Positions 18,487 to 42,440 of a DNA stretch of 64,000 bases are shown in pieces. Origin of the DNA: Candidatus Latescibacterota bacterium (GTDB lineage Bacteria; Latescibacterota; UBA2968; UBA8231). Below the pieces are notes generated by a model, which saw only the letters and a program-made list of their open reading frames with translations, had not been told where the DNA came from and searched no databases. Positions within the stretch are counted from its first letter, which is position 1. Every line of letters begins with the position of its first letter. Location: NCBI GenBank assembly GCA_965217585.1, contig OZ244561.1, forward strand, positions 2,880,001 through 2,944,000. The letters run 5' to 3'. Both the position numbers and the translations under genes were made by a program.

Positions 18487-18539
18487 ATAATGCAGCCCTC
18501 ACCTAGGACTTTTCCCGCCGCGTCGGTTTATTTTTTGCG
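18487..18539. repeat. Copy 1 of PNPOx-like gene 3'-end/downstream repeat
   Basis: ataatgcagccctcacctaggacttttcccgccgcgtcggtttattttttgcg matches 40415 onward, 39431 onward and 41925 onward. Confidence 0.9.
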
Positions 18540-18574
18540 TTCCTTTGAAGGCCCTGTAGTCCTGCCGCCCGGAC

Positions 18575-19675
18575 TCATCCCCCTCCCAGAGCCCGCCCCA
18601 GGAAATCCACCGCGCGCGGGATGGCACCTCCCAGCGTTAAGATCTGGTGTCCGCCTCCCTCGTAGATGAACGCCTCGAATTCGGGGGGCTCACGTCCCAG
18701 CGCTTCCATGGCTCGGATCAGGGAATGGGCCTGGCTGACGGAAACGGTTCCATCAGCGTCGCCGTGGTGGAGCTGGACCGCGGGCAGGTCCTCGGCGAAC
18801 AGGACCGAGGAGCGGCGCACCAGCTCGAGGCGAACTTCTGCGAGATTGACTTCACCTCTCATGTAGGGCTGGATGAAGGTGGAATCGATGTGGGCGACCC
18901 CAGGCAGGTCGCGCGGAAAGCCCATGGCCGCGTCCCGCGCAATCTCCCGGACCCAGTCGTCGAAGAAGTCGGTGGGCCCGAAGAGGGCCACAATGTTCTC
19001 GATGCGCTCGTCGCGGATCCCGGCCAGCAGGGCGACGCCTGCTCCTCGGCTGCCGCCGACGATGCTCAGGCCTTCGATCCTCGCCTGCGGCGTCAGCTCC
19101 AATGCAACGTTGAGGAGCGCCAGGGCGTCGTCCACGTCGTAGTCCCAGTGACCGCCTGGGCCCGTCGAAACCCACTTTCGGTCCTCGTACTCGAGCGGTT
19201 CGCTGCGAAAGGACGGGATCACGTAGACGAAACTGTCGCGCAGTTCGCCGAGGGCGTAGATCACGATGTCGATGTCATCCACCTCGACGCCGCTGTCGCC
19301 CCCGTGCAGGTACATCAGGATGGGCAAGCTGCCCAAAGCCGCGGAGTCGGGGGCGAGGATCGCTCCGTAGTGGAGTACCTCCCCCATCCTGTGGGACACG
19401 ATGCGCAGGGTTGCCGGGGTTTCGTCCAGCGGATACGACTCGGTGAGTTCGATGGTCGCCTCAGCCGCGGAAATGTCGCGCCGGGCCCAGTCGGCGCGGA
19501 CGGCCTCCACCTCGGCCGCGGTCGGAGGCGCGAAGAGGTCGTCGAGTTTGGCCTCCAGGTCGATCGCGTCGGCAACGGGCTCCACCGGATCGCCGGCCTG
19601 ATCGCATCCCGCCAGCAGCCCAAGCAGCAGCACAGCCGACAATAGCCCCCGCACGCATCGACGCCAGAGGGGCAC
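18575..19675 (-). CDS. Alpha/beta hydrolase (S9-like) lipoprotein
   Basis: Lipobox LLAGC; HGG, GGSRG nucleophile elbow, HGDADGTV, GGGH; start set at GTG after GGGAG rather than the longer ORF call. Confidence 0.8.
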   Translation of the reverse strand: MPLWRRCVRGLLSAVLLLGLLAGCDQAGDPVEPVADAIDLEAKLDDLFAPPTAAEVEAVRADWARRDISAAEATIELTESYPLDETPATLRIVSHRMGEVLHYGAILAPDSAALGSLPILMYLHGGDSGVEVDDIDIVIYALGELRDSFVYVIPSFRSEPLEYEDRKWVSTGPGGHWDYDVDDALALLNVALELTPQARIEGLSIVGGSRGAGVALLAGIRDERIENIVALFGPTDFFDDWVREIARDAAMGFPRDLPGVAHIDSTFIQPYMRGEVNLAEVRLELVRRSSVLFAEDLPAVQLHHGDADGTVSVSQAHSLIRAMEALGREPPEFEAFIYEGGGHQILTLGGAIPRAVDFLGRALGGG

Positions 19676-19845
19676 GCACGCTCCCACCCTTCGCAATGCA
19701 CCATCCTCTGCGGAACGGGCGTTCCGATCGCCTGCCGAGCGCACCGGGTCCGGGGTGCGTCGAATGTCCAGACCACCTGTCTTCAAGAGCGACTCCTGAG
19801 TTCCCGCCCTGATATAACCTGCCCTAAGCACCCTAATATAAGCCC

Positions 19846-19929
19846 GTTGCGCCCTTCGTGTTCCGGGTTGAACCGGATACGGGCCGGAACACGAAGGGCG
19901 CAACCAGACCGTACTGGGAGTCCTGTCGA
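19846..19929. repeat. Dispersed ~80-bp repeat, copy A, with perfect 21-bp hairpin arms
   Basis: gttgcgcccttcgtgttccgg (19846-19866) / ccggaacacgaagggcgcaac (19884-19904) followed by cagaccgtactgggagtcctgtcga; related copies at 24828 and 40525. Confidence 0.85.
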
Positions 19930-19983
19930 AGGACCCGCCAGGGACCATGAGGAGTTTGGCCTGACCCTGGTCTGGGCTGAGCG

Positions 19984-20016
19984 CCTTGACAGAGAATCCC
20001 CAAAAGACCTTTTATT
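19984..20016 (+). promoter_or_regulatory. Repeated promoter-like module (TTGACA-containing)
   Basis: 29/33 identical to 36975-37007; both lie just upstream of an RBS and a catabolic gene. Confidence 0.5.
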
Positions 20017-20049
20017 CGGGAGTGACCTACCTCGCGCGAAGGAGGAGTG

Positions 20050-21126
20050 ATGGGAAAACTGGAACGGAACGGGCGCGTCATCGTCGCGGAAGGGGGGAGT
20101 TGCCCCTCCCTGGAGCGCCTGAGCAACGGCGACCTGCTGGTGGCCTATCGAGACGACACCCACAGCAAGATGTGCGTGAGCGTGACGCGCTCCACCGACT
20201 GCGGCCGGACGTGGCGCAAGGAGCACACCTTCGCCTACGGTGCCTCGGCGGAGCGAGCGGACGAAGAGTTCTACGGCCATCACGGCATGGCGCAACTCGC
20301 CGACGGCACCATCCTGCTGCCCTACAACGTGTACGGAACCAGCTACAGCGGCATCTACAACCGCACCGTGTGCGTGCGCAAGTCGGTGGATCAGGGGGCC
20401 ACCTGGTCGGAGCCGATCGCGGTGATTCCCGGCTCGGGCCCGGCTGCCGGCTGGGCGTCGGCGGTTTCCTACGGCAAGATCCTCACCCTCCACGACGGCA
20501 CCGTGATCCTGCCGATCATCGGCCGCCACGGGTTCCTGACCTCCAGCGATGGCGGCGAGACTTGGGAGCGCTACGTCACGGCCGCCTGTGATCGCTACTC
20601 GGGCGACGAAGCCGACTTTCTGCAGCTCCCGAGCGGCCGCATTCTGTGCGTGAACCGCGATCCCTCCAACACCCACGGGCACGGGGTCGGACCGCTGTTC
20701 TGCAACTGGAGTGACGACAACGGCACCACCTGGAGCAGCCACGAAATGGTGGGCTGGTCCGACCCGCGCTACGGCCACTCCCCGGCGCTGTTTCTCACCA
20801 AGACCGGCACTGTAGTCTGCGGCTACCGGCACGTGGCCGAGATGGACCACCTGCACATCGGCAGCGTGGCGTTCTGTTACGTCAAGGAGGAGGGGCTGGA
20901 TTGGAGCGGCGAAACCCACATTTATGGTGGCCCCATGTACCTCTCGTTCCTGATGCGGTTCGAAGCCATGGGGCAGGGCTACCCCAGCTTCGCCTACGCC
21001 GCCGACGAGCGCATCTTGGTGGTGCACCACAACCAGCCGCCGCCGGCGGTCGGGGAGCGCGACATCGAGGGCGTGTTCTACGTGGAGCGGGACGAGGAGC
21101 CCGCTTGGCGCGGCGACGTGGGCTAA
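20050..21126 (+). CDS. Sialidase-like / BNR Asp-box beta-propeller protein
   Basis: Asp-boxes STDCGRTW, SVDQGATW, SSDGGETW, SDDNGTTW; GGAGGAG RBS. Confidence 0.85.
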   Translation: MGKLERNGRVIVAEGGSCPSLERLSNGDLLVAYRDDTHSKMCVSVTRSTDCGRTWRKEHTFAYGASAERADEEFYGHHGMAQLADGTILLPYNVYGTSYSGIYNRTVCVRKSVDQGATWSEPIAVIPGSGPAAGWASAVSYGKILTLHDGTVILPIIGRHGFLTSSDGGETWERYVTAACDRYSGDEADFLQLPSGRILCVNRDPSNTHGHGVGPLFCNWSDDNGTTWSSHEMVGWSDPRYGHSPALFLTKTGTVVCGYRHVAEMDHLHIGSVAFCYVKEEGLDWSGETHIYGGPMYLSFLMRFEAMGQGYPSFAYAADERILVVHHNQPPPAVGERDIEGVFYVERDEEPAWRGDVG

Positions 21127-21140
21127 GAAGGACTCTTACT

Positions 21141-22088
21141 ATGGCAAGTCAATTTCTCATAGATGGTGACCTGTTCGTCGAAGTGGTAGACAACAACGAC
21201 GGAGGAGGTTTTCCTCAGAAACGGGTTGATGAACTCTCCCAAGCGAACAGGAAAGGGCGTTTTGACAACATCGCCTTCCCTTTTGAACGGGCGAACGGTT
21301 ACAACGGTGTGCGCCAACTCTACAGCCGACGCGGCCCACAGGAGAACATTTTCCGGTCATCTTGGGCAAGTAGCCTCAATTTTGAGTTCATCTATGACCG
21401 GTCCGGCAGGTCAATGATTCCCCGTTGGCTTGGCGGCAAACTCGGAACTCCGCCAACGCCAAGCCAACTCACTCGGCTTGATGACAACTCGGTCCAATTG
21501 ACGACCGCTATCCCCGAACCCCATCGCATTGAGGTCAGCACGACCTTTACCCTCGTTCCACCGCATTACATTGATTTGGAAACCACATGCGTTGCCCATC
21601 CCGACGCTTTCGAGGGGGATTGGCTAGGGCTATTCTGGGCGAGTTATATCCACAACCCCGAAGACAAGACCACCTACTTCCTCGGCCGTCCAGACGAAAA
21701 TAGCCCCGAACAATGGATTGAATCGCTAATGGAACAACCACTGAACGCGCGTGTCTTTGCGAGTGAAGCCGATACGCTAGTCCAGGATGAACCCAATCCA
21801 GATGGTGGCTTGTTCCACAACATCCGCCCCATCCGATATGTCCATCCGTTCTTTTACGGATGCTGGCGCAATATGATGTTCGAACTGATGTTCAAGAGCA
21901 CCGATTCCCTTCGATTCGCGATTCAGCCAACAGGCGGCGGACTGACAAATCCAGCGTGGGACTTTGCCATCCTCATAAAGAATTGCCAACCGTTGACCCA
22001 CTATACCTTCAGTGCCCGTGTGGTCTTCAAGCCATTTGTGAGCCGTGAAGACGCATGGGAAGAGTATCAGAACTGGGTGGCCGATTAG
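21141..22088 (+). CDS. Hypothetical protein, possibly galactose mutarotase-like beta-sandwich
   Basis: Start at MASQFLIDG after AAGGA; aromatic-rich beta-strand pattern (GLFWASY, NPAWDF); fold is a guess. Confidence 0.6.
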   Translation: MASQFLIDGDLFVEVVDNNDGGGFPQKRVDELSQANRKGRFDNIAFPFERANGYNGVRQLYSRRGPQENIFRSSWASSLNFEFIYDRSGRSMIPRWLGGKLGTPPTPSQLTRLDDNSVQLTTAIPEPHRIEVSTTFTLVPPHYIDLETTCVAHPDAFEGDWLGLFWASYIHNPEDKTTYFLGRPDENSPEQWIESLMEQPLNARVFASEADTLVQDEPNPDGGLFHNIRPIRYVHPFFYGCWRNMMFELMFKSTDSLRFAIQPTGGGLTNPAWDFAILIKNCQPLTHYTFSARVVFKPFVSREDAWEEYQNWVAD

Positions 22089-22133
22089 CCCCTTAACAAT
22101 CGGGAATTATATACAATAGTGCCCAAACACTAA

Positions 22134-22166
22134 AACGGCCTAGCTCTCACTCAGAGCTAGGCCGTT
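22134..22166 (-). terminator. Intrinsic terminator of the TA cassette operon
   Basis: 14-bp stem aacggcctagctct / agagctaggccgtt with 5-nt loop; short T-run on the minus strand. Confidence 0.7.
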
Positions 22167-22397
22167 CATTTTCTGAATAGTTATTTATTTAGCCCCGACC
22201 CTATCGGGTTTTGGGTATAGGTCTTCCCCACAGTATCGGCGCTTCTTGGTCCCCAGCTCTAGCGCCGCGGCACAGAATATGCCGGACCAGATAGGCCGCC
22301 GGAGTAAGGCTGAAGGCTGTTATAAGCCTCCGGCGGCAAAGTATTCCCATCGCCCTTTCTCTACAATAAGTTATACCAGAAAAGGAGGAGATTAATC

Positions 22398-22751
22398 TTA
22401 ACATGTATACAACACAGCATTTCCTATATTAACACGAAGCAATTTCCTCAACATATTTGACACATCACGGATGCCTTGGTCAATGTTGCGAGCTTGGCGA
22501 CAAAAATCCGGATCAACGGTACAAACGACAATCCCAAAGTGATTGCAGTCTTCTTTATGCAGAGCTATAAAGTCTTTGCGATTGAGGGTAAGAACGGCCC
22601 GGCCCTGCGTGCGTGCGAAACACAGAACATCTTCATCATCTAAACCTTGATTACCTACTTCTTGAGTAGTCAATACATCGTATCCAAACCCGCGAAGCCC
22701 ATTAACTACCGGTAACGGAAAATTCTCATTAGAGTACAGTCTTCTTACCAT
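22398..22751 (-). CDS. DUF5615 PIN-like toxin
   Basis: LYSNENFP...GYDVLT...DDEDVL...RAVLTLNRKDF...HFGIV pattern; downstream of DUF433. Confidence 0.85.
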   Translation of the reverse strand: MVRRLYSNENFPLPVVNGLRGFGYDVLTTQEVGNQGLDDEDVLCFARTQGRAVLTLNRKDFIALHKEDCNHFGIVVCTVDPDFCRQARNIDQGIRDVSNMLRKLLRVNIGNAVLYTC

Positions 22752-22755
22752 GTGC

Positions 22756-23064
22756 TTAAGCCGATTCGTTATCAGCAATCTGCTGGTCGATCTCTGTCTG
22801 GTTGTATCGGTAATAATTCAAAGCATTTTTTAGGTCTCTCTCCTCCAAAGTAGGAAATGCAGATAGCAGTTCCTTTTCGTCGATGCCTAGTTTATGGTAC
22901 TGCACCAAAACCCAAATCGGAATCCGGCTGCCCTCGATGCAGGCCGCTCCCCCACAGACACCAGGAGTTTTATGAATCCCGAGATACGTATAGGAGTAAA
23001 TAGAATCCGGAAAAGAAGAAAGTGAATCTAAAAAATCGCTCGAAACATGAGAAGATACCATCAC
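22756..23064 (-). CDS. DUF433 antitoxin
   Basis: IHKTPGVCGGAACIEGSRIPIW...ELLSAFPTL...NALNYY. Confidence 0.88.
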   Translation of the reverse strand: MMVSSHVSSDFLDSLSSFPDSIYSYTYLGIHKTPGVCGGAACIEGSRIPIWVLVQYHKLGIDEKELLSAFPTLEERDLKNALNYYRYNQTEIDQQIADNESA

Positions 23065-23330
23065 GAATTCTCCCTCCTTAATTCATCAGGAGTTTTAGAG
23101 ACAAATACCGCCAGTTGGCTCCTAACGTTATACATTGGATTGCCGTCAGTATCCCAATGATCGTCAAGGCGGACCACCTGTAAGATGGACGGCTTGACTC
23201 TTAGAATTGTCCCATCCTCAAGATGAACCTCAAAAGAAGCAAAAGAATCCGACCCAACCAAGGCGGTTACATTAATCTCTGTCCCCTCTAATTTCCCAAA
23301 CGCACTCTGTATCGTTACTTTCTTGGCCAT
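23061..23330 (-). CDS. Small hypothetical protein, first gene of the TA operon
   Basis: AGGAG RBS then MAKKVTIQ; LEDGTILRVK...DGNPMYNV; stop overlaps the DUF433 start. Confidence 0.7.
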   Translation of the reverse strand: MAKKVTIQSAFGKLEGTEINVTALVGSDSFASFEVHLEDGTILRVKPSILQVVRLDDHWDTDGNPMYNVRSQLAVFVSKTPDELRRENS

Positions 23331-23633
23331 AGTATGTCTCCTCTTACACGTCATTTGTTCCCCGACCCAGTCACGGATCATTATAGCTATTGTACCACAA
23401 AAGCATCTTGTCAACAACTGTCTAGACAGCCTACGACTATTTGAATACCTACCGTCCAACCGAATACTTACGACATAGCTAGAAGGTGCCACCTAGGCGG
23501 CACCTTCCCAATGATAGATCCTCGTAACCCTCAAGAAGATCAAAGAGTTATGAAATATTGGGCACTATTGTATATAATTCCCTAACAATACCCGCAATCG
23601 CTCCAAGGTGCCGGTTGCGCGTTGTACTCGGAC

Positions 23634-24641
23634 CTACCGCATTTCCGCCAGCGAGACCGTCCTGTGTTCCCTGGCCGAAACCGAGACGGCTGCGGCAATT
23701 TCGACATCCAGCAGGGCATCTGCTGGAGGATTGCGGGCCTCGCGGCGGCTCTCTATGGCATCGAGGAAGGCGGCTGCCTGCCGGACAAGCGGAGACGGCT
23801 CGTTCGCAAAAGCGCGAACCTCGGAACGGCCCCGATGAAAAACGGTAATGGAATCCTTGCCGGGCGGGCTGTCGGCATTGGGCAGGATTCCGCCCTCGGC
23901 GCAGACAAATCGCGGCTGTGGGTCGGGCATGCCCTCCGGGCCGATATAACTGGCCGTGGCCGCAGCGAAGGCACCGTTTTCAAATCCGATCAGGGCCCCG
24001 CATGTCTCCTCCACTACGTGACCGGGAGCCGTATTTCGCATCCGATTGGCCATCGCGGACACGGTGGTCGGCCTGCCGAGAATCCAGCGGACGGCATTGA
24101 GATAGCAGTAACTCATGTGGGTCAGCGGCATCCCCCCACTCGCCTCCTGGTCATAGTACCACCCGTCCGGGTCCGGGTTCCACAGGGCCATGGTCACGGC
24201 CATCACCGGCACCCCCAGTTCCCTTCCCGCCACCAAGCGCCGGATCTCCTCCCAGGCAGGGTCGTAACGGCGCTGGAACCCGGCCTCCACAATCCGACTG
24301 TTCCGGGCCGCCATTTCTACGATCTGGTGCCCATTTTCCATACTCGAAGCTAGACATCCGCCCACGAGGAGGTCGTAACCGGCATCCAATGCCCAAATGG
24401 AGACCTCATCCTGAACGCGATGCGGAACCTCGATTAGGATCGCGTCCGGTCCGGCCTCCCCCAATCGGCGAAAGTCATCGCAGAAAACGTCGCACCCCAA
24501 CTCAGCCGCGCAGCTTGCAGCACGCTGTGTGCGCCGGGCGGCGACGCCGCAGATTTCCGCACGGCCGGTGTCCAGCAACGCCCTGCCCCGCGCCTGGGCC
24601 ATGTTTCCGGCTCCCACAATCGCTATTCGCTGTTTCGGCAT
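23634..24641 (-). CDS. Gfo/Idh/MocA-family oxidoreductase
   Basis: RIAIVGAGNMA Rossmann motif; GFQRRYDP; SGG...H; atypical GGCLA in place of EKP. Confidence 0.85.
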   Translation of the reverse strand: MPKQRIAIVGAGNMAQARGRALLDTGRAEICGVAARRTQRAASCAAELGCDVFCDDFRRLGEAGPDAILIEVPHRVQDEVSIWALDAGYDLLVGGCLASSMENGHQIVEMAARNSRIVEAGFQRRYDPAWEEIRRLVAGRELGVPVMAVTMALWNPDPDGWYYDQEASGGMPLTHMSYCYLNAVRWILGRPTTVSAMANRMRNTAPGHVVEETCGALIGFENGAFAAATASYIGPEGMPDPQPRFVCAEGGILPNADSPPGKDSITVFHRGRSEVRAFANEPSPLVRQAAAFLDAIESRREARNPPADALLDVEIAAAVSVSAREHRTVSLAEMR

Positions 24642-24827
24642 TGTGCTAGCGCTCCCGTTTTTGAGTTTAATTCCCGCCGCAGCGAATCCTTGCCGTCGAC
24701 GCTTATGCCCATTTCGATCCTCAATCGGTTCGTTTAAGGCGAAACCGGTACTGGGTCTCTTTCATCGGCAGCCGGAAGGGGTGCGTTGATTGCTAACGGT
24801 TTTCTTAATCTCATAAAATATGAAAAG

Positions 24828-28560: not shown

Positions 28561-28571
28561 AGGAGGAGAGC

Positions 28572-35719: not shown

Positions 35720-35722
35720 CAG

Positions 35723-36967
35723 TTAGAAGCGCCTTCCGCCAGCGAATCCATTGAATTCGTCCAGGAACCACTCGGCTTGCTTCGTCATAAAGACGCCGAT
35801 CTCTTCCCCCTTGAAGGCGAAAGATACCCTGAGCCCACCCAGGTAAATATCCGTGATATAGACTTCCATGTTGAGCGTCTGCTCGTCGACCCACGCGGCT
35901 GAGGCCAGGCAATCGTATTTGATGCCCGGGACCGAGCCGATCTGTTCGCCGAAGTAATTGCGTTGAGGGAACTTGCCGGACAGTACGCGCCCGACACCGA
36001 ACCGCAGCACGTTGTCGCCCTGACCGTTGGTGTACTCCCAGACGCCCTCATCCTCCTTGAAGGACAGGCGCATCCGCGTGATCCCCATCGGGTTGTCTGC
36101 CAAAGCATACCAGGCTCCGTTGACTTCCAAAGCCGCCCTTGCGTCGGGGCCCCCGGGGATCGGCAGGACTGCCAGCCGCTCGATCTTATCGGAGAGTTCC
36201 GCGTGGGCGTCGCGGTTTTCGGCAAGCGGCGCGTCTGATAGGTGGGGGTAGAGTTCCTGACGCATCACGACCGGAATGGCGCTGCCGGCCGGTGCGCCCT
36301 GTGTGTCGGCGATGCATGTGAACAGAAACTCTTTGTCGGGAAAACAGATCGCGTACTGACTGCCCATCCCGCGGAAGGAGAATCCGTTCTCTTGGTCTCG
36401 CCAGATCTGATATCCATACCCGCAGTTCCCCCGGATGGCGTTGTCGATCTGGCTGGAGGCAAGCCGTTCGACCGTGGCTGTGAGCACGACGGTTGCCGCG
36501 GTGTCGTACGAAAAGATCGTTCCAGAAGGATGCGAGGGGGGCCGGTTGAAGAAGGTCCAAACCCAGTCCGGATCGTCGCGCGTATAGGAGGTTGTCGAAT
36601 GGGGGGTCGCCATCGTCAGGAGATCCCGGACGGTCGCGGCGGCAAGCCACGGATGAAGGTCTTCCGGCAGTTTGTCCGGGAAGTATTCGGCGACCCGATC
36701 GTCGAGGGTGAGCCGGCCTTCGTCGACCATCATCCCGACCGCCAACGCGACAAAGCTCTTACTGACCGAATACATCCGGTGCATGCGTTCCGCCGACCAC
36801 GGGGCCCAGTATCCCTCAGCCGCGATTCTGTTGTGATGCACCAGCAGGAATCCATGCATGCAGATTCGCTCGGAGTCGATCCGCTGCAGGAAATTCAGGA
36901 TCGCCCGTGAAGGTATTCCCTGGCTTTCAGGTGAGGGTGCCGTTGTAAACACTTTTTCACTTTCCAT
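35723..36967 (-). CDS. Serine hydrolase (beta-lactamase class C-like), apparently with an internal in-frame deletion
   Basis: AGGAG RBS then MESEKVF; SVSK, LLTMAT, FSYDT, GYGYQIW motifs; the segment normally found between TVERL and GYGYQIW seems absent. Confidence 0.75.
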   Translation of the reverse strand: MESEKVFTTAPSPESQGIPSRAILNFLQRIDSERICMHGFLLVHHNRIAAEGYWAPWSAERMHRMYSVSKSFVALAVGMMVDEGRLTLDDRVAEYFPDKLPEDLHPWLAAATVRDLLTMATPHSTTSYTRDDPDWVWTFFNRPPSHPSGTIFSYDTAATVVLTATVERLASSQIDNAIRGNCGYGYQIWRDQENGFSFRGMGSQYAICFPDKEFLFTCIADTQGAPAGSAIPVVMRQELYPHLSDAPLAENRDAHAELSDKIERLAVLPIPGGPDARAALEVNGAWYALADNPMGITRMRLSFKEDEGVWEYTNGQGDNVLRFGVGRVLSGKFPQRNYFGEQIGSVPGIKYDCLASAAWVDEQTLNMEVYITDIYLGGLRVSFAFKGEEIGVFMTKQAEWFLDEFNGFAGGRRF

Positions 36968-36974
36968 AGCTGCT

Positions 36975-37007
36975 CCTTGACAAAGAATCCAAAAAAGACC
37001 CTTTATT
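36975..37007 (+). promoter_or_regulatory. Repeated promoter-like module, second copy
   Basis: ccttgacaaagaatccaaaaaagaccctttatt, 29/33 identical to 19984-20016. Confidence 0.5.
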
Positions 37008-37043
37008 TTTCCTATACATTCCAAAAACCTAAGGGAGATCAGC

Positions 37044-37844
37044 ATGCGACTCAAAGACAAAACAGCCATCGTCACTGGTGCCGGGGGCGGCATGGGCCTC
37101 GGCATAGCGAAATGCCTGACGCGCGAAGGGGCCGCCATCGTGGCGACCGACATCGACGGCGACAGGGCGCAGGCCACCGCCGACCAGCTCGAGCGCGAAG
37201 GGGCCGCCGCGGTCGCCATCGCCGCCGACATAACGGATGAATCCGCCTGCCAGGACCTCGTCGCGCAGGCGATCGAGCGCTTCGGCGCCATCGACATCCT
37301 CGTCAACAACGCCGGCCACTTCGGCACCATCGTCGGTGCCCCGTTCACCAACTTCACCGGCGAGGAGTGGGACAGCAACTACGACATACACGTCAAGGGC
37401 CCCTTCTTCCTCTGCAAGGCGATCGCCCCGCACATGATCGAGCGCCGCTACGGCAAGATCATCAACATCTCTTCCGCGGCCGCCAAACGCGACCCGACCT
37501 TCCTACCGGCCTACGCGGCCGCCAAGAACGCGATGCTCAGCCTGACGCGGCTGACCGCCAAGGACCTAGGACCGCACAACATCACCGTAAACGCCGTATG
37601 CCCCGGGTTCGTGTGGACCAACTTCTGGCACACGCTGGCGCCGAAGATCGCCGAGGTAGATCCCGCCTATGCCGGCAAAAGCGCCCGCGAGGTGTTCGAC
37701 CTGTTCATCGCCAACTCGACGCCGATGCAGCGGGAACAGTCGCCTGAGGACATCGGCAACATGGTCGCCTTCCTCGCTTCCGAGGAGGCACGCAACGTCA
37801 CCGGCCAGACGATAAACGTCAGCGGCGGCATGGTCCTGGACTGA
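37044..37844 (+). CDS. Short-chain dehydrogenase/reductase
   Basis: TGAGGGMG, NNAG, YAAAK, VNAVCPG. Confidence 0.93.
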   Translation: MRLKDKTAIVTGAGGGMGLGIAKCLTREGAAIVATDIDGDRAQATADQLEREGAAAVAIAADITDESACQDLVAQAIERFGAIDILVNNAGHFGTIVGAPFTNFTGEEWDSNYDIHVKGPFFLCKAIAPHMIERRYGKIINISSAAAKRDPTFLPAYAAAKNAMLSLTRLTAKDLGPHNITVNAVCPGFVWTNFWHTLAPKIAEVDPAYAGKSAREVFDLFIANSTPMQREQSPEDIGNMVAFLASEEARNVTGQTINVSGGMVLD

Positions 37845-37853
37845 ACAAGGCGA

Positions 37854-38525
37854 ATGCACAAAGAACCTGCTGACTTGCGAGTGATCCTGATCGGCGGCTC
37901 ATCCCACGTCGGAAAATCGACCTTGGCCGATTCGCTGGCAGCAAAGCTGGGGTGGGCCCAAATCTCCACGGACAAACTCGCCCGCCACCCCGGTCGGCCA
38001 TGGCAACCGGAACCACAGCAGGTGCCCGACCACGTAGCCGAGCACTATCTCTCGCTGTCGGTGCGCGAATTGATTGAGGATGTGCTCCATCACTACAAGG
38101 TCAATGTGTGGCCGCAAGTTGAGGCGATCGTCACGGCGACCGCGACCGACACCTCCAAGGAGCGGATAATAATAGAGGGATCTGCTCTGTGGCCAGAGTT
38201 TGTGGCGACCCTAAATGTTGCCAACTTCGCTGCTGTTTGGCTCACAGCCAGTGACGCCGTCTTTGAGCAGAGGATTCGCGCGGCAAGTCAGTATCGAACG
38301 AAGTCCCAGCGCGCAAGAAGGATGGTGGATAAGTTTCTGGAACGCAGCCTGCTCTACAATGCGCAGATGATGGATGCAATTAGGCTGCACGGGCTGGTCA
38401 GTGTGGACGTAAGTGCAGCTAGTGTGGATGAGCTGACGCAGAGGTGTTTGTCGTTGCTGGGCTTGGAGCACGCTGGGCCGCGTCCTGAACGAGAGTACGA
38501 TGGCCGCATGACGGACATTTTTTAA
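37854..38525 (+). CDS. P-loop small-molecule kinase (2-phosphoglycerate kinase-like)
   Basis: GGSSHVGKST Walker A; ISTD; IIIEG. Confidence 0.75.
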   Translation: MHKEPADLRVILIGGSSHVGKSTLADSLAAKLGWAQISTDKLARHPGRPWQPEPQQVPDHVAEHYLSLSVRELIEDVLHHYKVNVWPQVEAIVTATATDTSKERIIIEGSALWPEFVATLNVANFAAVWLTASDAVFEQRIRAASQYRTKSQRARRMVDKFLERSLLYNAQMMDAIRLHGLVSVDVSAASVDELTQRCLSLLGLEHAGPRPEREYDGRMTDIF

Positions 38526-38565
38526 TTTGTATATAATTGCTTAATTGTCCGGTTCTGGATAGCTT

Positions 38566-38613
38566 CAGCATAGAGACGCACTTTATGCCGAGTGGGAAAC
38601 CAAAGTGATATAA
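38566..38613 (+). pseudogene. 3' remnant of a probable DUF4160 toxin gene
   Basis: QHRDALYAEWETKVI* ends directly before the RBS of a DUF2442 gene, the usual position of its partner. Confidence 0.4.
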
Positions 38614-38623
38614 GGAGCTAAAA

Positions 38624-39433
38624 ATGGCAAAGACTGCTGAAATGATTGTCTGGGCTCAAGACCTATTTAGCTATGACATCATTCCGCCCTCTTTCACCGT
38701 TTTTAGACCGGATGAGAGCGAGGTGAACGCTCGGAATATTTTCGTATTAACTTCTGTTGCCGACCTTCCTACTGTAAGTGAGTTTGTCCGCGCTCCCAAT
38801 CATCGAAACCATCTTCGAACCCTTTTCGTCCGCGAAGACAACAACGCTCAGTTTTTGCCGCAGATGCTTTACGAGGCAAAACTCAAAAGCAGCCGACATA
38901 TTCTTGTGTATTCAACTGAGGATGTGCCAAAGCGCGTTCTAACAGCTTGGAGTCTTGGATGTCCCGATCAACTCATTGCCACGGCACAGGTTGTAGGTGA
39001 GGAACTCTTTATCATGGCGTGTGATAACACCTTATTCAGAGTGGGTTTTGCAGAAATGCCCGCACTGGAGCGCATACCATCCCAACAGCGTTCTTCATTT
39101 ACTATCTCCAGTGAAGGCAGTTATATACACTGGCCTGAGGTTGATGTACACATTGACCTAGATGCTGTTCGCTACCTAAAAGACGAAACATGGCGTGAGA
39201 AAAAGGATCGGGAAAAACTAATGTACGACCTCCGATTCGGAGAGGCCGTTGCCGCATTGCGCAAGCAGTACGGGCTTAAGCAAACCGAGATACGAGGGCT
39301 TTCTGAACGCCATGTGCGAAGGATCGAAAAGGGGGAACGGACAAAGATTGATACGCTAGCGATTTTGGCAAGAAACCACGGATTGTCCCTTAAAGAGTAT
39401 CTCGATGAAATTGCCGAAATGTTCTCCCCTTAG
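38624..39433 (+). CDS. DUF2442 plus XRE-HTH protein (antitoxin-like)
   Basis: FTISSEGSYIHWPEVDVHID; C-terminal LRKQYGLKQTEIRGLSERHVRRIEKG. Confidence 0.75.
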   Translation: MAKTAEMIVWAQDLFSYDIIPPSFTVFRPDESEVNARNIFVLTSVADLPTVSEFVRAPNHRNHLRTLFVREDNNAQFLPQMLYEAKLKSSRHILVYSTEDVPKRVLTAWSLGCPDQLIATAQVVGEELFIMACDNTLFRVGFAEMPALERIPSQQRSSFTISSEGSYIHWPEVDVHIDLDAVRYLKDETWREKKDREKLMYDLRFGEAVAALRKQYGLKQTEIRGLSERHVRRIEKGERTKIDTLAILARNHGLSLKEYLDEIAEMFSP

Positions 39434-39502
39434 GACTTTTCCAGCCGCGTCGGTTTATTTTTTGCGGTCCTTGTAGCGGCGGCCCCTGTCTTCGACGCGG
39501 CG
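39431..39502. repeat. Copy 2 of PNPOx-like gene 3'-end repeat
   Basis: 39449-39502 is identical to 41925-41978 (54 bp); starts at the TAG stop of the preceding gene. Confidence 0.95.
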
Positions 39503-39721
39503 GCCTCAAGGATACCGGCGACGATGGCTGAGCCGACCTGTGGAAGTGGGGCTGCTGCGTCTGAGGGTACAAGGGTAAGCACTCAGACCTTGACGCCGCC
39601 TTCAACTAGGTGCGGTAGTACGCTTTAGCGCTGAAAAACTCGCCTCTGCTGATCGTTTGGTACATAGTGCGGTTTCGGATTCGTACGAAATAGTGGAAGG
39701 AGCCGCTCTATGGTCCATCTA

Positions 39722-39757
39722 TTGCCAAGATTTTTGGTATTAGATATAATACCAAAA
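39722..39757 (+). promoter_or_regulatory. Sigma70 promoter with overlapping palindromic operator; predicted leaderless transcript
   Basis: TTGCCA-N17-TATAAT; 11-bp inverted repeat ttttggtatta / taataccaaaa; only 6 nt between the -10 box and the ATG, no RBS. Confidence 0.75.
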
Positions 39758-40185
39758 TGGGACTGTCTCAAATTGTCTTGGATACCAATATTTTGGTCGC
39801 AGCACTTCGCTCTAAACGGGGTGCTTCTTTTAAGCTGGTCTCTTTGGTTGGCCAAGGTCTATTTGGGATCAATCTCTCGGTGCCGCTCGTCTTGCAGTAC
39901 GAAGAGGTACTTCGACGCCAGAGACGTAGTTTACATGTTACGCAGGACAGTATTGCAGATGTTCTTGATTATCTGTGCTCGGTGGCCAATTTGCACGAGA
40001 TATATTTCCTTTGGCGGCCCTACCTGCCGGATCCGCAGGATGATATGCTGCTGGATTTGGCTGTCAATGCGAGCTGTAAGTATATCGTAACCTATAACAA
40101 ACGGGACTTCCGCGGTGTGGAGACGTTTGGCATTAAGGTAGTAACGGCCAAAGAATTTCTGGAAAGGATAGGAGTCTTATCATGA
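39757..40185 (+). CDS. PIN-domain toxin
   Basis: IVLDTNILVAAL...QYEEV...DPQDDMLLDLA...IVTYNKRDF. Confidence 0.9.
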   Translation: MGLSQIVLDTNILVAALRSKRGASFKLVSLVGQGLFGINLSVPLVLQYEEVLRRQRRSLHVTQDSIADVLDYLCSVANLHEIYFLWRPYLPDPQDDMLLDLAVNASCKYIVTYNKRDFRGVETFGIKVVTAKEFLERIGVLS

Positions 40186-40418
40186 GTACGCTGAGCGTTC
40201 GATTGCCCGATTCGCTGCATAAGCGAGTCAAGCAGATGGCGGAGGGGGAGGGGGTTTCAATGAATCAGTTTATCACCTTGGCAGTGACGGAGAAAGTGTC
40301 GGCGCTGATGACGGTTGAGTATCTCGAAGAGCGTACTAAGCGAGGTAGTCGTCAGAAGTTTGAAGCTGTTTTGGCAAATGTGCCGGATATAGAGCCGGAA
40401 GTATATGATCGGTTATAA
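40182..40418 (+). CDS. Ribbon-helix-helix antitoxin
   Basis: MSTLSVRLPDSLH...EGVSMNQFI; ATGA overlap with the PIN gene. Confidence 0.88.
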   Translation: MSTLSVRLPDSLHKRVKQMAEGEGVSMNQFITLAVTEKVSALMTVEYLEERTKRGSRQKFEAVLANVPDIEPEVYDRL

Positions 40419-40520
40419 TGCAGCCCTCACCTAGTACTTTTCCAGCCGCGTCGGCTTATTTTTTACGGTCCTTGTAGCGGCGGCCTCGATCTTCGACGCG
40501 GTGCTCGCGCATTAATTCCA
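40415..40520. repeat. Copy 3 of PNPOx-like gene 3'-end repeat (diverged allele)
   Basis: Minus strand encodes ELMREHRVEDRGRRYKDRKK* versus native ELVRERRVEDRGRRYKDRKK*; starts at the TAA stop of the antitoxin. Confidence 0.92.
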
Positions 40521-40524
40521 CTTA

Positions 40525-40572
40525 ATACGGGCCGGGCCGGATATGTGTCCGCCGCAACCAGACCGTACTGGG
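40525..40572. repeat. Dispersed repeat, partial copy C
   Basis: atacgggccg...ccgccgcaaccagaccgtactggg matches copies A and B. Confidence 0.8.
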
Positions 40573-40596
40573 CTACTGGAAGCAGGAGGTCGATTG

Positions 40597-41409
40597 GTGC
40601 AAGAAATCATAGACAACCTGTCGAGTAATCCACTCGCATTCGTTCTTGATGATGGCTGGGTACTCTACCATGGGACTTCTAAGTCGTATTCCGCTTCGAT
40701 AGAGTCTTTCGGACTCGGACATCAGGAAGGGGTACCAAGTTACTGGGACGACGTACAGTCTTTCATAACGTACTGGCAGATCTTCAACCTGGAATCTCCC
40801 GCCTTTGTAGCCCTAGCGGGATTCAGTCAGGATCGCGAAGGTGTCCGCGCCGTTTCCCTCGCCGAGACATTCGAGCGCGCAGCACGTTATGCCGTAAAAG
40901 AGCCTGGCGGTGAGACCATTGCGCTTATGCGTCGAGCTATTGGTGAGATTGCAGAAGAAATCAGGAACCCGGAGCTTATCAAGACACGCCTACACGAGCA
41001 GCGCACGTGCATCTATCGACTAGCAGTTCGCAGTGGATTCGATAGCGAAGATTCTTGGGATGCAGTAAACGGCGCTGTTGGTCCGTCATTTCATGCTATC
41101 GATCACGCGCTAAGTGTCCTTGAATGTCCGGAGGTTCTCTTCTCAGAACTCGATAAGTTCAAATCCTATAGTAGCGCCAGAGAGCATCCTCCCGTTGTTT
41201 ACGCAGTTCGCATTCACAGTGCGGACATCAGCCATCTTTCGATGAATTCAGCTGGAGTCAACTACCGTGGCGTACTACCTCCAGAACGCCTTCTAGCTCG
41301 CGTTCGGATCTCTGACGACAGAGTCATCCGGCAGCTTGCTGCTGACGACGAAGGCTTCGATTCGTACTTGGAAGCCCGGGGGATGTGGCGCAAGAGACTA
41401 GGCCACTAA
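40597..41409 (+). CDS. Hypothetical protein with ADP-ribosyltransferase-like YHGT motif
   Basis: AGGAGG RBS before GTG; WVLYHGTS...SIESFGL; VSLAETFERAARYA; VVYAVRI. Confidence 0.55.
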   Translation: MQEIIDNLSSNPLAFVLDDGWVLYHGTSKSYSASIESFGLGHQEGVPSYWDDVQSFITYWQIFNLESPAFVALAGFSQDREGVRAVSLAETFERAARYAVKEPGGETIALMRRAIGEIAEEIRNPELIKTRLHEQRTCIYRLAVRSGFDSEDSWDAVNGAVGPSFHAIDHALSVLECPEVLFSELDKFKSYSSAREHPPVVYAVRIHSADISHLSMNSAGVNYRGVLPPERLLARVRISDDRVIRQLAADDEGFDSYLEARGMWRKRLGH

Positions 41410-41669
41410 CGTGGGCAGGCGTCATGTGGTGCCTCACTCCGCTTCGCTCCGGGTTCGGAAACGTGAGAGCCTCTACACGAAAGTGCGCCCCGGCCCATCT
41501 CCTGCGCTAGCACGGTGTTCTGACGCCTCGTGCCCGAGATCGCGACCGCCATCGTGTCGGGGCAGCCGTCGGCTGCGGAGCGCGATTCGAGGGCTTTCTC
41601 CTGCGGTCATCGGCTGCGGTGGGCGGCCCTGCTTGCCCGCGTTGAAAATTAGTGGGAACTGACTTTCGC

Positions 41670-41924
41670 TTAAGCGGCTGTATTCTGTTTGATCTCCCAA
41701 CCGACCAAAACAGCCGGATGGCACTGCAGGGCTTGCGCTAGCACTTTGGCGCGTTCAACCCCAAGCTGTACGCGGTTATTTTCTATGGCTGAAATAGTAG
41801 ATTGAGGAATGCTAGTGCGCCGGGCGAGTTCATTCTGGCTAGGCTCCTGAAGCTCGCGGATAATACGGACGGACTCACCTACAGATACTTCAATCTGCTT
41901 CTTGGCGCGACGATAATTTTTCAT
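41670..41924 (-). CDS. XRE-family HTH protein (HigA-like antitoxin)
   Basis: SQNELARRTSIPQSTISAIEN...GVERAKVLA; no toxin gene upstream. Confidence 0.75.
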   Translation of the reverse strand: MKNYRRAKKQIEVSVGESVRIIRELQEPSQNELARRTSIPQSTISAIENNRVQLGVERAKVLAQALQCHPAVLVGWEIKQNTAA

Positions 41925-41930
41925 GTCGGT

Positions 41931-42440
41931 TTATTTTTTGCGGTCCTTGTAGCGGCGGCCCCTGTCTTCGACGCGGCGTTCGCGCACTAATTCCATTACC
42001 GGGACGCCGTAGCCGCAACTAGTGCCGGTCAGTTCGACTTCGACTTCGATTACATGGCGTTTGGTGCGCAGGTGTTCGGACTCCGTTTGCAGCAGCAATG
42101 CGGCGTGGGGCGATTCTTCGAGCGGGGTGGCCGTGGCTTTGCCGTAGAGGCGGATGATGCCGGCGTCTTCTCCTGCAAAAGAACAGACCATGACAGTGAT
42201 CGGGCCGCCGGCCGTCGCGTGACGCACTGTTTCATTGCCACTGCCCAAGTAGTCGAGGAAGGCCACTCGGTTGGGATCAATTATGTGTAGCGGCACGCCG
42301 CCCTTGGGCGAGAGATTGACCGGGCCGATGCCTTCGGGACCGGGCGCGAGCGCGGGATCGGCGGAGGCGACGAAAAACAATGGCGCGTTGCGGATCAGCG
42401 CAGCTTGGTCGTCGGTGATGGAGGGATAGTAGGTGGCCAT
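41931..42440 (-). CDS. Pyridoxamine 5'-phosphate oxidase-family FMN-binding protein
   Basis: LFFVASA...VNLSPKG...FLDYLGSGNET...ITVMVCSF...IRLYG...TSCGYGVP. Confidence 0.88.
   Translation of the reverse strand: MATYYPSITDDQAALIRNAPLFFVASADPALAPGPEGIGPVNLSPKGGVPLHIIDPNRVAFLDYLGSGNETVRHATAGGPITVMVCSFAGEDAGIIRLYGKATATPLEESPHAALLLQTESEHLRTKRHVIEVEVELTGTSCGYGVPVMELVRERRVEDRGRRYKDRKK

What the first reader, a model, noticed from the sequence alone, without database searches (positions are those of the whole stretch)
18487..41978. Integrase-free gene-accretion hotspot built on repeated copies of a host gene's 3' end
Seen: the terminus and/or downstream flank of the PNPOx-like gene occurs four times in direct orientation (18487-18539, 39431-39502, 40415-40520, native from 41925) and brackets about 23.5 kb of accessory genes. 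The copies differ in length and endpoints. Two begin exactly at the stop codon of a cargo gene (TAG 39431-39433, TAA 40416-40418), and the HigA-like ATG lies 6 bp from the native stop. No integrase, transposase or reverse transcriptase is present in the window. Inference: serial capture of one- or two-gene cassettes with long, variable target duplications. Fixed-length att cores or attC sites do not explain this, so it may be an undescribed cassette-insertion mechanism.
Basis: partly seen in the sequence, partly recalled or inferred. Interest (0 to 1): 0.8.

Follow-up and report, generated by a model that had tools for sequence, protein, structure and literature searches.

The report
Integrase-free gene-end displacement hotspot
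Behind one conserved gene of an uncultured Latescibacterota bacterium, batches of accessory and defence genes were added one after another by ordinary recombination, each leaving a copy of the gene's tail; dozens of other genes in this genome carry the same scar, and the process is of an already described, integrase-free kind.

Summary
Four direct copies of the PNPOx-like gene's 3' end (18487-18545, 39431-39502, 40415-40520, native from 41925) occur only at this locus of the 7.3-Mb genome. Contigs of other sequencing runs reproduce the junctions. No integrase, transposase or reverse transcriptase lies in the window.

The mechanism is probably not new. Relatives show a genus-wide hotspot between a conserved permease-like gene and PNPOx, and at least 7 of 22 relatives carry extra PNPOx-end fragments. 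The breakpoints inside the gene differ in each event, whereas the end near the stop codon stays fixed. Copy C carries another species' allele and differs mostly at synonymous sites.

Genome-wide, 46 of 101 other local direct-repeat pairs show the same 3'-end geometry, against about 8 expected. They carry unrelated cargo and no integrase, and 62% of their differences fall at third codon positions.

This fits homology-anchored additive recombination: one crossover in the conserved gene and one illegitimate join. It matches "insertion with long target duplication" and sequential displacement arrays.

A site-specific process at the shared 24-nt core, or a dedicated 3'-end-targeting system, is not excluded. 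The scan has noted the same pattern before on other DNA.

The parts
11114..13555 (+). conserved left-flank gene (813 aa); marks the far border of the hotspot in relatives
   Evidence: The 12007-13568 module lies next to the variable region in G014, G012, G024, G009, G002, G013, G019 and G021. G009 has a protein 88% identical.
13562..18456 (+). two variable genes left of copy A: an ADOP-family permease (13562-16027) and a beta-helix/pectate-lyase-like protein (16099-18456)
   Evidence: NCBIfam TIGR03434; Pfam PF12708 and PF13229. The beta-helix gene lies near PNPOx only in G022 and G014, among 40 relatives searched.
18487..18545 (+). copy A: the oldest displaced PNPOx end. It keeps the tail of an RHH-type flank plus the 24-nt core and is cut 15 nt upstream of the stop.
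   Evidence: The same junction occurs in G014. G011, G024 and G002 carry other PNPOx fragments at this place.
18575..39433 (.). block between A and B. It holds S9-like peptidase, BNR, a 395-aa unknown, the TIR-bounded TA cassette, GFO/IDH/MocA, SoFic, a 148-aa unknown, PDC-S54, aldo-keto reductase, ECF sigma, a split HyoA NACHT gene, beta-lactamase-like, SDR, AAA kinase and DUF2442-HTH.
   Evidence: Pfam, PADLOC and NCBIfam. The S9, GFO, AKR, beta-lactamase-like, SDR and HTH modules are shared at 90-96% identity with most relatives, in shuffled order.
24547..24679 (-). 5' end of the GFO/IDH/MocA gene. It is duplicated at 28308-28440 (86%; 91% over 126 nt) around the SoFic/PDC-S54 block.
   Evidence: A variant joint 24724->28431 without the block appears in contigs of X19 and X21.
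39431..39502 (+). copy B: the resident gene end, still attached to its usual neighbour (DUF2442-HTH gene plus spacer). Positions 39449-39502 equal D.
   Evidence: HTH-spacer-PNPOx is contiguous in G014, G022, G003, G012, G024, G002, G019 and G006 and in three further loci, L052, L054 and L057.
39503..41924 (.). most recent insert (2,422 bp, GC about 0.50). It holds PIN toxin 39757-40185, RHH antitoxin 40182-40418, copy C, a 288-aa unknown 40543-41409 and an orphan HigA-like HTH 41670-41924 (minus strand).
40415..40520 (+). copy C: a displaced PNPOx end imported inside the last insert. It carries a foreign allele.
   Evidence: It is 88.7% identical to its own D but 92.8% identical to G013 and 93.4% to G024. 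In the last 21 codons it shows 2 amino-acid changes, and the remaining differences are synonymous.
41925..42440 (-). native PNPOx-like gene (41931-42440) with its 3' end (copy D, from 41925): the homologous anchor
   Evidence: It is found in 18 of 24 genomes of the same genus.
42498..46021 (-). two ABC transporter genes: the conserved right flank
   Evidence: Pfam; aligned at 90-96% identity in relatives

Best explanation
The locus is a recombination hotspot that grows without an integrase, by homology-anchored additive recombination, here called 3'-end displacement. DNA enters from another cell of the same genus or species. It carries the conserved PNPOx-like gene followed by that donor's own downstream genes. 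It pairs with the resident gene and is fixed by one homologous exchange inside or upstream of the gene end. The far end of the incoming piece has no partner. It is joined illegitimately to the resident chromosome at an arbitrary point inside the last 24-510 nt of the resident gene. Integration by a single crossover of a circularised fragment would give the same product. The functional gene then ends with the incoming tail followed by the new cargo. The resident tail, still attached to its old downstream neighbours, is pushed outward as a dead fragment. Repeating this, and importing arrays that already hold such a fragment, gives the series A ... B ... C ... D. Deletions, a TIR-bounded transposition and local shuffles then remodel the array. 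Shown here: the copies and junctions; variability among relatives; absence of recombinase genes; variable inner and constant outer breakpoints; the allele-like nature of the differences; and the same scar genome-wide. Inferred: the route of DNA entry, dependence on RecA, the nature of the illegitimate join, and that selection explains why only 3' ends show the scar.
For: (1) Anchor side constant, far side variable. Displaced PNPOx fragments end inside the gene at 41948 (A), 41978 (B), about 41995-42000 (C), 42011 (G003), 41960 and 42027 (G011), 42027 (G024), 42030 (G002), 42076 and 42167 (L052), and 42434 (a whole second copy in G013). The PIN-RHH module keeps its PNPOx-side end, but its far end is cut at 39503, 39972, 40051, 40136 and 40155 in five genomes. 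(2) Both parental junctions exist in relatives. HTH-spacer-PNPOx is contiguous in 8 genomes and in 3 loci. RHH-flank-PNPOx occurs in G011 and G013, and HigA|PNPOx occurs in G013. (3) Copy C matches other species' alleles (92.8-93.4%) better than its own D (88.7%), and it differs mostly at synonymous sites. The RHH-to-C piece is 95.4% identical to G013, against 91.6% for the G013 core flank. (4) No recombinase was found. G000 has 5 Xer-like PF00589 genes, the nearest 415 kb away, and none reaches the integron-integrase cut-off. It has 0 PF00239 matches. Five relatives have 3-4 PF00589 genes each, none near PNPOx. The 24-nt core was found nowhere else in G000. In the relatives where I know the gene's place, every hit but one lies within 10 kb of it; the exception is G003:C42, on another contig of a fragmented assembly. 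(5) The scar is general. Of 101 low-copy local direct-repeat pairs outside this locus, 46 end within 30 nt of the stop of an ORF of 150 aa or more, with the partner downstream. Shifted controls give 8.1 +/- 2.7, with a maximum of 17 in 300 shifts. In 28 of 48 pairs the edge lies -2 to +6 nt from the stop. Cargo shares no family across more than three loci. 2 of 48 pairs hold a DDE transposase, and 0 of 48 lie within 5 kb of a PF00589 gene. (6) Differences between the intact ends and the displaced copies fall 68:38:170 on codon positions 1:2:3, with 128 synonymous and 81 non-synonymous codon changes. The two copies therefore diverged while both were working gene ends. (7) At a second locus (G000 144500-151000), 14 of 30 relatives have the single-copy empty site and 3 carry the cargo. 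(8) The junctions are real: independent contigs cross them. (9) The inserts have GC of 0.45-0.52 against 0.60-0.62 in the flanks.
Against: B and D are identical and share an allele (ggcccctgtc) seen in no relative. So for the last event the donor was conspecific, or the copies were homogenised by conversion, or the target itself was duplicated. The mechanism as stated is symmetric, yet 5' ends show no excess: 12 of 101 start-containing copies against 12.1 expected. The polarity therefore has to be put down to selection, which I did not test. Several junctions fall exactly at the edges of the 24-nt core. A core with unrelated flanks on both sides stands 110 nt from the left-flank gene in G002, G014 and G003. 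That pattern is what an att site would give. Microhomology at the illegitimate joins could not be assessed, because the donor sequences beyond the joins are unknown. ComEC and DprA are present, but they also ring in non-competent control genomes. The ORF calls behind the genome-wide counts are crude: the longest ORF was taken, with no gene finder.
Confidence: 0.62

Rival explanations
1. Site-specific tandem accretion. The 24-nt core is an att site overlapping the gene's 3' end. Elements integrated one after another through a tyrosine recombinase that is now lost or acts in trans, as with cis-mobilizable elements beside ICEs at the fda 3' end in streptococci. The longer matches are element-borne copies of the gene end.
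For: All four copies, and the extra copies in G002, G003, G013 and G014, share the same 24 nt. Several junctions lie exactly at its left edge (HigA|core in G000 and G013, SDR|core in G009, HTH-spacer|RHH in G013) or at its right edge (A-type and the solitary type). A solitary core with unrelated flanks sits at the far border of the array in G002, G014 and G003. Targeting of a 3' end and synonymous divergence of the duplicated end are also typical of integrase-borne elements (my own recollection of e14 in icd). Units without an integrase are known as CIMEs (PMC7563491, passages read).
Against: None of the 22 relatives' loci aligned to G000 showed an integrase by position in the five genomes searched. 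Those genomes hold only 3-5 Xer-like recombinases and no serine recombinase. No attP-like core copy occurs elsewhere in 31 genus genomes. The inner ends of the repeats vary from 24 to 510 nt. 46 other repeat pairs at unrelated genes show the same scar without a nearby integrase, which a few site-specific enzymes cannot serve. The clustering of left-edge junctions is also expected from selection, because only about 20 nt separate the two convergent stop codons.
Confidence: 0.12
2. A dedicated, undescribed cassette-capture system that targets gene 3' ends. A host-encoded or trans-acting activity would place cassettes right after stop codons and duplicate the gene tail.
For: The scar is strictly polar: 45 of 101 stop-containing copies in the proper orientation against 12.4 expected, and 12 start-containing copies against 12.1 expected. 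The repeat edge sits -2 to +6 nt from the stop in 28 of 48 pairs. In many loci the first cargo gene follows in the same orientation behind a ribosome-binding site (by eye, not counted). Three different cargo genes of this locus share a local leader element (19846-19918, 24828-24899, 40515-40572) found nowhere else in the genome.
Against: Cargo at different loci shares no gene or motif. Inner breakpoints are scattered. The third-position bias shows that the tails come from diverged orthologues and are not copied from the target. Known processes together with deletion bias and selection against 5' fragments can give the same picture.
Confidence: 0.1
3. Duplication in place. Tandem duplications of PNPOx-containing segments arose by unequal or illegitimate exchange between sister chromosomes. 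Partial deletions and rearrangements followed, with no import.
For: G013 has two intact PNPOx copies flanking HigA. The HigA module lies on either side of PNPOx in different genomes. B and D are identical and share a lineage-specific allele.
Against: The DNA between the copies is not a duplicate of neighbouring DNA. C carries a foreign allele. Genome-wide, the differences between copies are biased to third codon positions, which decay after a local duplication would not give. The inserts have lower GC.
Confidence: 0.07
4. Assembly artefact. Strain variants of a hypervariable locus were laid in tandem in a metagenome-assembled genome.
For: The genome is a MAG (record titles of close relatives) with 6.9% estimated contamination. 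The runs also hold related strains with other arrangements (joints).
Against: Contigs of four other runs from two studies reproduce 40359-41954 and cross 39502|39503, although some of these runs may be the source sample. Comparable arrays stand in independent assemblies: G003, G011, G013, G014 and L052.
Confidence: 0.02

Closest known systems
Insertion with long target duplication (Furuta, Abe & Kobayashi 2010, PMC2853133, passages read; Nobusato et al. 2000 seen only as its reference 37)
   Same: Unique direct repeats of 46-423 bp flank inserts under 20 kb that carry no mobility gene. A related genome holds one copy of the repeat. Two Haemophilus examples overlap a gene's 3' end. Most cases lie in naturally competent species.
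   Different: It was described for restriction-modification genes and as single events. Here any cargo is involved, up to four tiers stand at one gene, and the scar is genome-wide and 3'-specific. The two copies differ as alleles do, so the 'target duplication' is better read as donor tail plus resident tail. I could not see that paper's supplementary figures.
Sequential displacement arrays: T6SS effector-immunity modules of Vibrio cholerae (Kirchberger et al. 2017, PMC5361080, passages read) and Rhs C-terminal displacement (Jackson et al. 2009, seen only as a citation there)
   Same: A conserved upstream stretch serves as the anchor. The new module is inserted next to it and older 3' ends are pushed downstream as orphans. 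No integrase is involved, and homology-facilitated illegitimate recombination is the proposed mechanism.
   Different: In those arrays the incoming 3' end encodes a different toxin domain, and the orphans are toxin tips with immunity genes. Here the incoming tail encodes the same protein end, and the cargo is unrelated to the anchor gene.
Tandem accretion of ICEs/IMEs with cis-mobilizable elements at the 3' end of a protein gene (fda) in streptococci (Lao et al. 2020, PMC7563491, passages read; Bellanger et al. 2011 seen only as a citation)
   Same: A tandem array stands at a protein gene's 3' end, with internal repeat copies and units that lack an integrase.
   Different: CIMEs keep fixed att sites and depend on a related integrase in the same array or cell. 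Here no integrase was found in any array, and the repeat ends vary.
Minimal mobile elements of Neisseria (PMC3787668 and PMC1797815, search listing and abstracts only)
   Same: Cassettes are exchanged without an integrase, between conserved flanking genes, by homologous recombination after DNA uptake.
   Different: As I recall, MMEs are swapped by crossovers in both flanks and leave no duplicated gene end.

Membership tests
Insertion with long target duplication | direct repeats longer than 30 bp flank the insert, and related genomes hold a single copy at the uninterrupted site | tested here: met
   B and D are 54/54 identical around 2,422 bp. HTH-spacer-PNPOx is contiguous with one copy in 8 relatives and 3 loci.
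Insertion with long target duplication | the insert is under 20 kb and carries no integrase or transposase | tested here: met
   39503-41924 holds PIN, RHH, a 288-aa unknown and an HTH only. The fold searches for the 288-aa protein gave no clear match.
Insertion with long target duplication | the repeat is unique in the genome | tested here: met
   The four copies occur only at this locus.
Homology-facilitated illegitimate recombination / sequential displacement | one constant homologous anchor and a variable non-homologous join | tested here: met
   Inner breakpoints range from 41948 to 42434 across events. The far end of the PIN-RHH module differs in 5 genomes while its PNPOx side is constant.
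Homology-facilitated illegitimate recombination / sequential displacement | the displaced and functional ends are alleles from different lineages | tested here: met
   C is closer to G013 and G024 than to D. Genome-wide codon-position counts are 68:38:170. B versus D is an exception, being identical.
Homology-facilitated illegitimate recombination / sequential displacement | short microhomology at the illegitimate join | tested here: inconclusive
   The donor sequence beyond each join is unknown. One 6-nt CCGCGT overlap was seen at the AAA-kinase/HigA boundary.
Homology-facilitated illegitimate recombination / sequential displacement | DNA uptake by natural transformation and dependence on RecA | not testable with these tools
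   ComEC and DprA are present, but they also ring in non-competent control genomes.
Site-specific accretion (ICE/IME/CIME) | an identical att core in every copy | tested here: met
   A 24-nt core with 0-2 mismatches is present in all four copies.
Site-specific accretion (ICE/IME/CIME) | a cognate integrase in the array, or in related arrays of other genomes | tested here: not met
   No PF00589 or PF00239 match lies in the window or near PNPOx in G000 and the 5 relatives searched. No recombinase family matched any ORF scanned.
Site-specific accretion (ICE/IME/CIME) | fixed crossover boundaries | tested here: not met
   The repeats extend 0 to 486 nt beyond the core on the gene side.
Integron / attC cluster without integrase | an integron integrase in the genome | tested here: not met
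   The best TIGR02249 score is 126.8 bits against a cut-off of 265, and that protein is XerD.
Integron / attC cluster without integrase | an attC site behind each co-oriented, promoterless cassette | tested here: inconclusive
   No Rfam match was found at 11-46 kb, but I do not know that Rfam holds an attC model. The genes lie on both strands.

The most novel reading that the evidence does not exclude
Latescibacterota, and the other uncultured lineages where the scan saw the same scar, possess a dedicated pathway that adds foreign cassettes immediately behind stop codons of resident genes. It might be coupled to transcription termination or use one of the three unassigned Xer-like recombinases. 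If so, the strict 3'-end polarity and the stop-codon register are mechanistic rather than products of selection.
Probability: 0.1. Interest if true: 0.85.

Novelty: new member of a known kind. Interest (0 to 1): 0.45.

Why it matters
Most hotspots of gene gain in bacterial chromosomes lack any mobile-element gene, and how genes enter them is still argued from a few cases: restriction-modification genes, Rhs and T6SS arrays. This genome gives a multi-tier example at an ordinary gene, with both parental junctions preserved in relatives. It also gives a genome-wide count: 46 further repeat pairs, strictly at 3' ends, with allele-like differences. That count suggests one-sided homologous capture of a neighbour's genes is a major, measurable route of gene gain, including gain of defence systems (SoFic, PDC-S54, HyoA, toxin-antitoxin pairs), in an uncultured, sponge- and marine-associated phylum. 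The displaced tails are datable scars. They could be used to order acquisitions and to identify donors.

Tried and rejected
- **Hairpin element as attC or a genome-wide repeat:** I tested the element at 19846-19918, 24828-24899 and 40515-40572. It occurs only at these three places. It has no Rfam match. Its likeness to PNPOx is no better than that of shuffled sequence, apart from the part of H3 that is copy C. It remains unexplained.
- **tRNA or tmRNA target:** none in the window.
- **The 288-aa cargo protein as a hidden recombinase:** It has no Pfam, NCBIfam or PADLOC family. It belongs to a small family of 38 proteins without names. The AlphaFold model has pLDDT 81. Foldseek gave nothing at E <= 0.001. 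VIA-align gave only helical-hairpin matches plus one weak ADP-ribose-binding chain (Z 5.3, 85 residues). The Atlas gave a weak ADP-ribosyltransferase lead at 0.89-0.90. The protein is not identified.
- **A shared cargo gene across the genome-wide loci:** none found.
- **IS elements as the cause of the genome-wide repeats:** only 2 of 48 pairs hold a DDE transposase.
- **Ku-type end joining:** no Ku match.
- **A contig joining B directly to D (loss of the last insert):** none among the 15 joints listed. Another 17 joints were not shown, and contigs drop rare variants, so this says nothing either way.
- **Earlier notes of the scan for this place:** none.
- **Baseline from well-studied genomes:** I could not run the genome-wide repeat scan on other genomes, because only G000 can be laid. 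No such baseline exists here.

Full report
**Observation**

The repeat finder on 17000-44000 reports a four-copy direct family. I read the sequences directly and ran blastn against the whole 7,323,734-base single-contig genome, in which the window is 2880001-2944000.
- Copy A is 18487-18545, B is 39431-39502, C is 40415-40520 and D starts at 41925. There is no copy elsewhere.
- B equals D over 54/54 nt. C is 88.7% identical to D over 71 nt. A is 91.5% identical to C over 59 nt.
- All four share 24 nt that include the stop codon of the minus-strand ORF 41931-42440.
- That ORF matches Pfam PNPOx_N only below the cut-off (23.2 against 28.1 bits).

**Are the junctions real?**

Logan contigs of four other runs from two studies were laid on 22050-42049.
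- One contig of X20 covers 40359-41954 without a difference. It runs from the RHH gene through copy C, the 288-aa gene and HigA into D.
- Contigs of X23 (39440-40194) and X19 (39473-40210) cross the 39502|39503 joint.
- Some of these runs may be the source sample.
- Similar arrays stand in independent assemblies of relatives, described below.

**Gene content** (Pfam, PADLOC and NCBIfam)

From left to right the region holds:
- ADOP-family permease, beta-helix protein, copy A;
- S9-like peptidase, BNR protein, a 395-aa unknown;
- a DUF433/DUF5615 toxin-antitoxin cassette;
- GFO/IDH/MocA oxidoreductase, SoFic, a 148-aa unknown, PDC-S54, aldo-keto reductase, ECF sigma;
- a HyoA NACHT antiphage gene split in two;
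- a beta-lactamase-like gene, SDR, AAA kinase, DUF2442-HTH, copy B;
- PIN and RHH, copy C, a 288-aa unknown, an HTH of HigA type, then D with PNPOx and two ABC transporter genes.

No recombinase family matched. Genome-wide there are 5 PF00589 matches, the nearest 415 kb away. One of these is XerD, one is XerC-like and three are unassigned; none is near the integron-integrase cut-off. There are 0 PF00239, 62 PF01609, 4 PF00665 and 1 PF00078 matches, and none lies in the window. No tRNA and no Rfam family lie in the region.

**Relatives**

Record titles of close relatives name Candidatus Latescibacterota MAGs. The PNPOx-like gene is found in 18 of 24 genomes of the same genus. I fetched up to 20 kb downstream of it from 17 genus genomes and 2 of a sister genus, plus five further genus loci, and aligned them with the window.
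1. The S9, GFO, AKR, beta-lactamase-like, SDR and HTH modules recur in most relatives at 90-96% identity, about the identity of the core flank. They differ in presence, order and sometimes orientation. The true hotspot lies between the 11114-13555 gene and PNPOx. It holds one gene (SDR) in G009 and about 28 kb in G000.
2. The commonest neighbour of PNPOx is the convergent DUF2442-HTH gene, separated from it only by a short spacer. Copy B is therefore the resident arrangement, broken after 39502.
3. Extra PNPOx-derived fragments occur in G011, G003, G024, G002, G013 and L052. G008's two pieces are one truncated gene. G014 has two further core-bearing copies. G021 has a flank-only fragment.
4. 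The inner ends of these fragments differ: 41948, 41960, 41978, about 42000, 42011, 42027, 42030, 42076, 42167 and 42434. G013 has a second intact copy.
5. The PIN-RHH module always keeps the end that faces PNPOx. Its far end is cut at five different places in five genomes.
6. HigA in G002, G011, G005, G008 and G019 overlaps an upstream HigB-like reading frame. In G000 and G013 the PNPOx end stands in HigB's place.

**Which copy came from where?**

B and D share an allele (ggcccctgtc) seen in no relative. C shares changes with G013 and is 92.8-93.4% identical to G013 and G024, against 88.7% to its own D. In the last 21 codons C differs from D by two amino acids, and its other differences are synonymous. 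The RHH-to-C piece is 95.4% identical to G013, whose core flank is 91.6% identical. The inserts have GC of 0.45-0.52 against 0.60-0.62 in the flanks. So C was a working gene end in another lineage, was displaced there, and entered G000 inside the 2,422-bp insert 39503-41924. That last event left the resident tail B behind.

**Is the shared 24-nt core an att site?**

For:
- It is common to all copies.
- Several junctions fall at its edges.
- A core with unrelated flanks stands at the far border of the array in G002, G014 and G003.

Against:
- With up to three mismatches the core is found in 19 of 31 genus genomes. In the genomes where I know the gene's place, every hit but one lies within 10 kb of PNPOx; the exception is on another contig of a fragmented assembly.
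- No element elsewhere carries the core.
- Five relatives have 3-4 tyrosine recombinases each, none near the locus.
- The repeat ends vary.

**The same scar genome-wide**

A self-comparison of the genome gave 137 local direct-repeat pairs of 40-300 nt, at least 88% identical and 0.3-25 kb apart. Of these, 107 were low-copy and 101 lay outside this locus.
- In 46 of the 101, the repeat edge lies within 30 nt of the stop of an ORF of 150 aa or more, with the partner copy downstream of that ORF. Pairs shifted by 0.3-3 kb give 8.1 +/- 2.7, with a maximum of 17 in 300 shifts.
- The opposite edge (7 against 7.5 expected) and the 5' ends (11 against 7.5) show no clear excess.
- Counting copies that contain a stop or a start gives 45 against 12.4 for stops and 12 against 12.1 for starts.
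- The edge lies -2 to +6 nt from the stop in 28 of 48 pairs.
- Cargo is unrelated from locus to locus. In ten ORFs scanned it includes a GNAT, an ABC permease, two DNA methylases, a DEAD/HIRAN helicase, an oxidoreductase and an HTH protein.
- Only 2 of 48 pairs hold a DDE transposase, 3 have one nearby, and none lies within 5 kb of a PF00589 gene.
- Differences between the intact end and the displaced copy fall 68:38:170 on codon positions 1:2:3, with 128 synonymous against 81 non-synonymous codon changes. The two tails therefore diverged while both were under selection, which means they are alleles from different lineages. A target that was copied and then decayed would not give this.
- At a second locus (G000 144500-151000; 224-nt repeat around a 4.5-kb helicase insert), 14 of 30 relatives have the uninterrupted single-copy site. 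G001, G046 and G013 carry the cargo.

**Reading**

The simplest account is integrase-free, homology-anchored addition. Incoming DNA from a relative pairs through the conserved gene. Its unmatched far end is joined illegitimately inside the resident gene's tail. The resident tail and its old neighbours are displaced. This is the geometry described as insertion with long target duplication (PMC2853133, passages read). It is also the geometry of sequential displacement by homology-facilitated illegitimate recombination in T6SS and Rhs loci (PMC5361080, passages read). A single crossover of a circularised fragment would give the same product, and I cannot tell the two apart.

Four points remain open:
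- why only 3' ends carry the scar; selection against 5' fragments and promoter disruption is an untested assumption;
- why B and D are identical;
- the junctions at the core's edges;
- the local leader element shared by three cargo genes.

These points keep a site-specific process and a dedicated 3'-end-targeting system alive as rivals. For the site-specific rival, the CIME concept comes from PMC7563491 (passages read).

**Earlier notes**

The scan had no note on this place. It holds at least eight notes of the same pattern in other genomes, with the same candidate explanations. These gave me the literature leads, which I checked in the papers named. My counts are from this genome only.

**Limits**

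- ORFs were called mechanically.
- No other genome could be scanned for a baseline.
- Contigs cannot show rare variants.
- Supplementary files of the papers were not seen.

Noticed in passing
window 22094-23582: A 1,489-bp cassette has perfect 25-nt terminal inverted repeats (22102-22126 / 23558-23582) and a 7-nt direct duplication, TAACAAT. It carries four small genes, including a DUF433/DUF5615 toxin-antitoxin pair, and no transposase. It is absent from G003 and G010 and from a contig of run X23 (joint 22093->23583). One further solitary copy of the repeat lies at G000 763,557.
   Followed up: partly
window 31384-35719 (minus strand): A HyoA-type NACHT antiphage gene is split into 1074-aa and 385-aa ORFs that overlap at 32495-32541. 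A contig of run X23 lacks one base at 32506. The gene therefore appears frameshifted in this assembly or strain and intact in another.
   Followed up: partly
window 19846-19918, 24828-24899, 40515-40572: A local three-copy element is found nowhere else in the genome. The first copy has a perfect 21-bp hairpin. It lies just upstream of three unrelated cargo genes (BNR, SoFic, the 288-aa protein). It is not significantly like PNPOx. Its role is unexplained.
   Followed up: partly
window 24547-24679 and 28308-28440: The 5' end of the GFO/IDH/MocA gene is duplicated around the SoFic / 148-aa / PDC-S54 block. Relatives have either GFO-AKR or GFO-Fic-AKR without the duplicate. Contigs of X19 and X21 show a joint 24724->28431, the junction also seen in G001.
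   Followed up: partly
window 40543-41409: This 288-aa protein belongs to a small unnamed family (38 relatives). It has an invariant HGTS motif, no Pfam family and a confident model without a clear fold match. Leads to ADP-ribosyltransferases are weak. It sits beside an orphan HigA-like HTH, and in G003 it also follows a displaced PNPOx end.
   Followed up: partly
window 35721-36980 versus 19953-20015 and 36965-37000: The beta-lactamase-like module lies inverted, between the S9 and GFO genes, in most relatives but next to SDR in G000. Two similar promoter-like stretches (TTGACA ... TTTAT) stand at the two alternative sites.
   Followed up: no
G000 genome-wide, for example 144500-151000, 609000-612500, 5129500-5138000: 46 further repeat pairs show a gene's last 40-270 nt repeated downstream of an insert of 0.5-19 kb. 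Cargo includes DNA methylases and a DEAD/HIRAN helicase.
   Followed up: partly
L033 (G013) 16142-17520: Two intact PNPOx-like genes (92% and 93% identical to the window's gene) flank the HigA-like gene. This is a whole-gene version of the tail duplication.
   Followed up: partly
G000 whole genome: The genome has 62 DDE_Tnp_1 transposase matches but only five tyrosine recombinases and no serine recombinase. IS elements are common, and integrase-borne islands seem rare.
   Followed up: no
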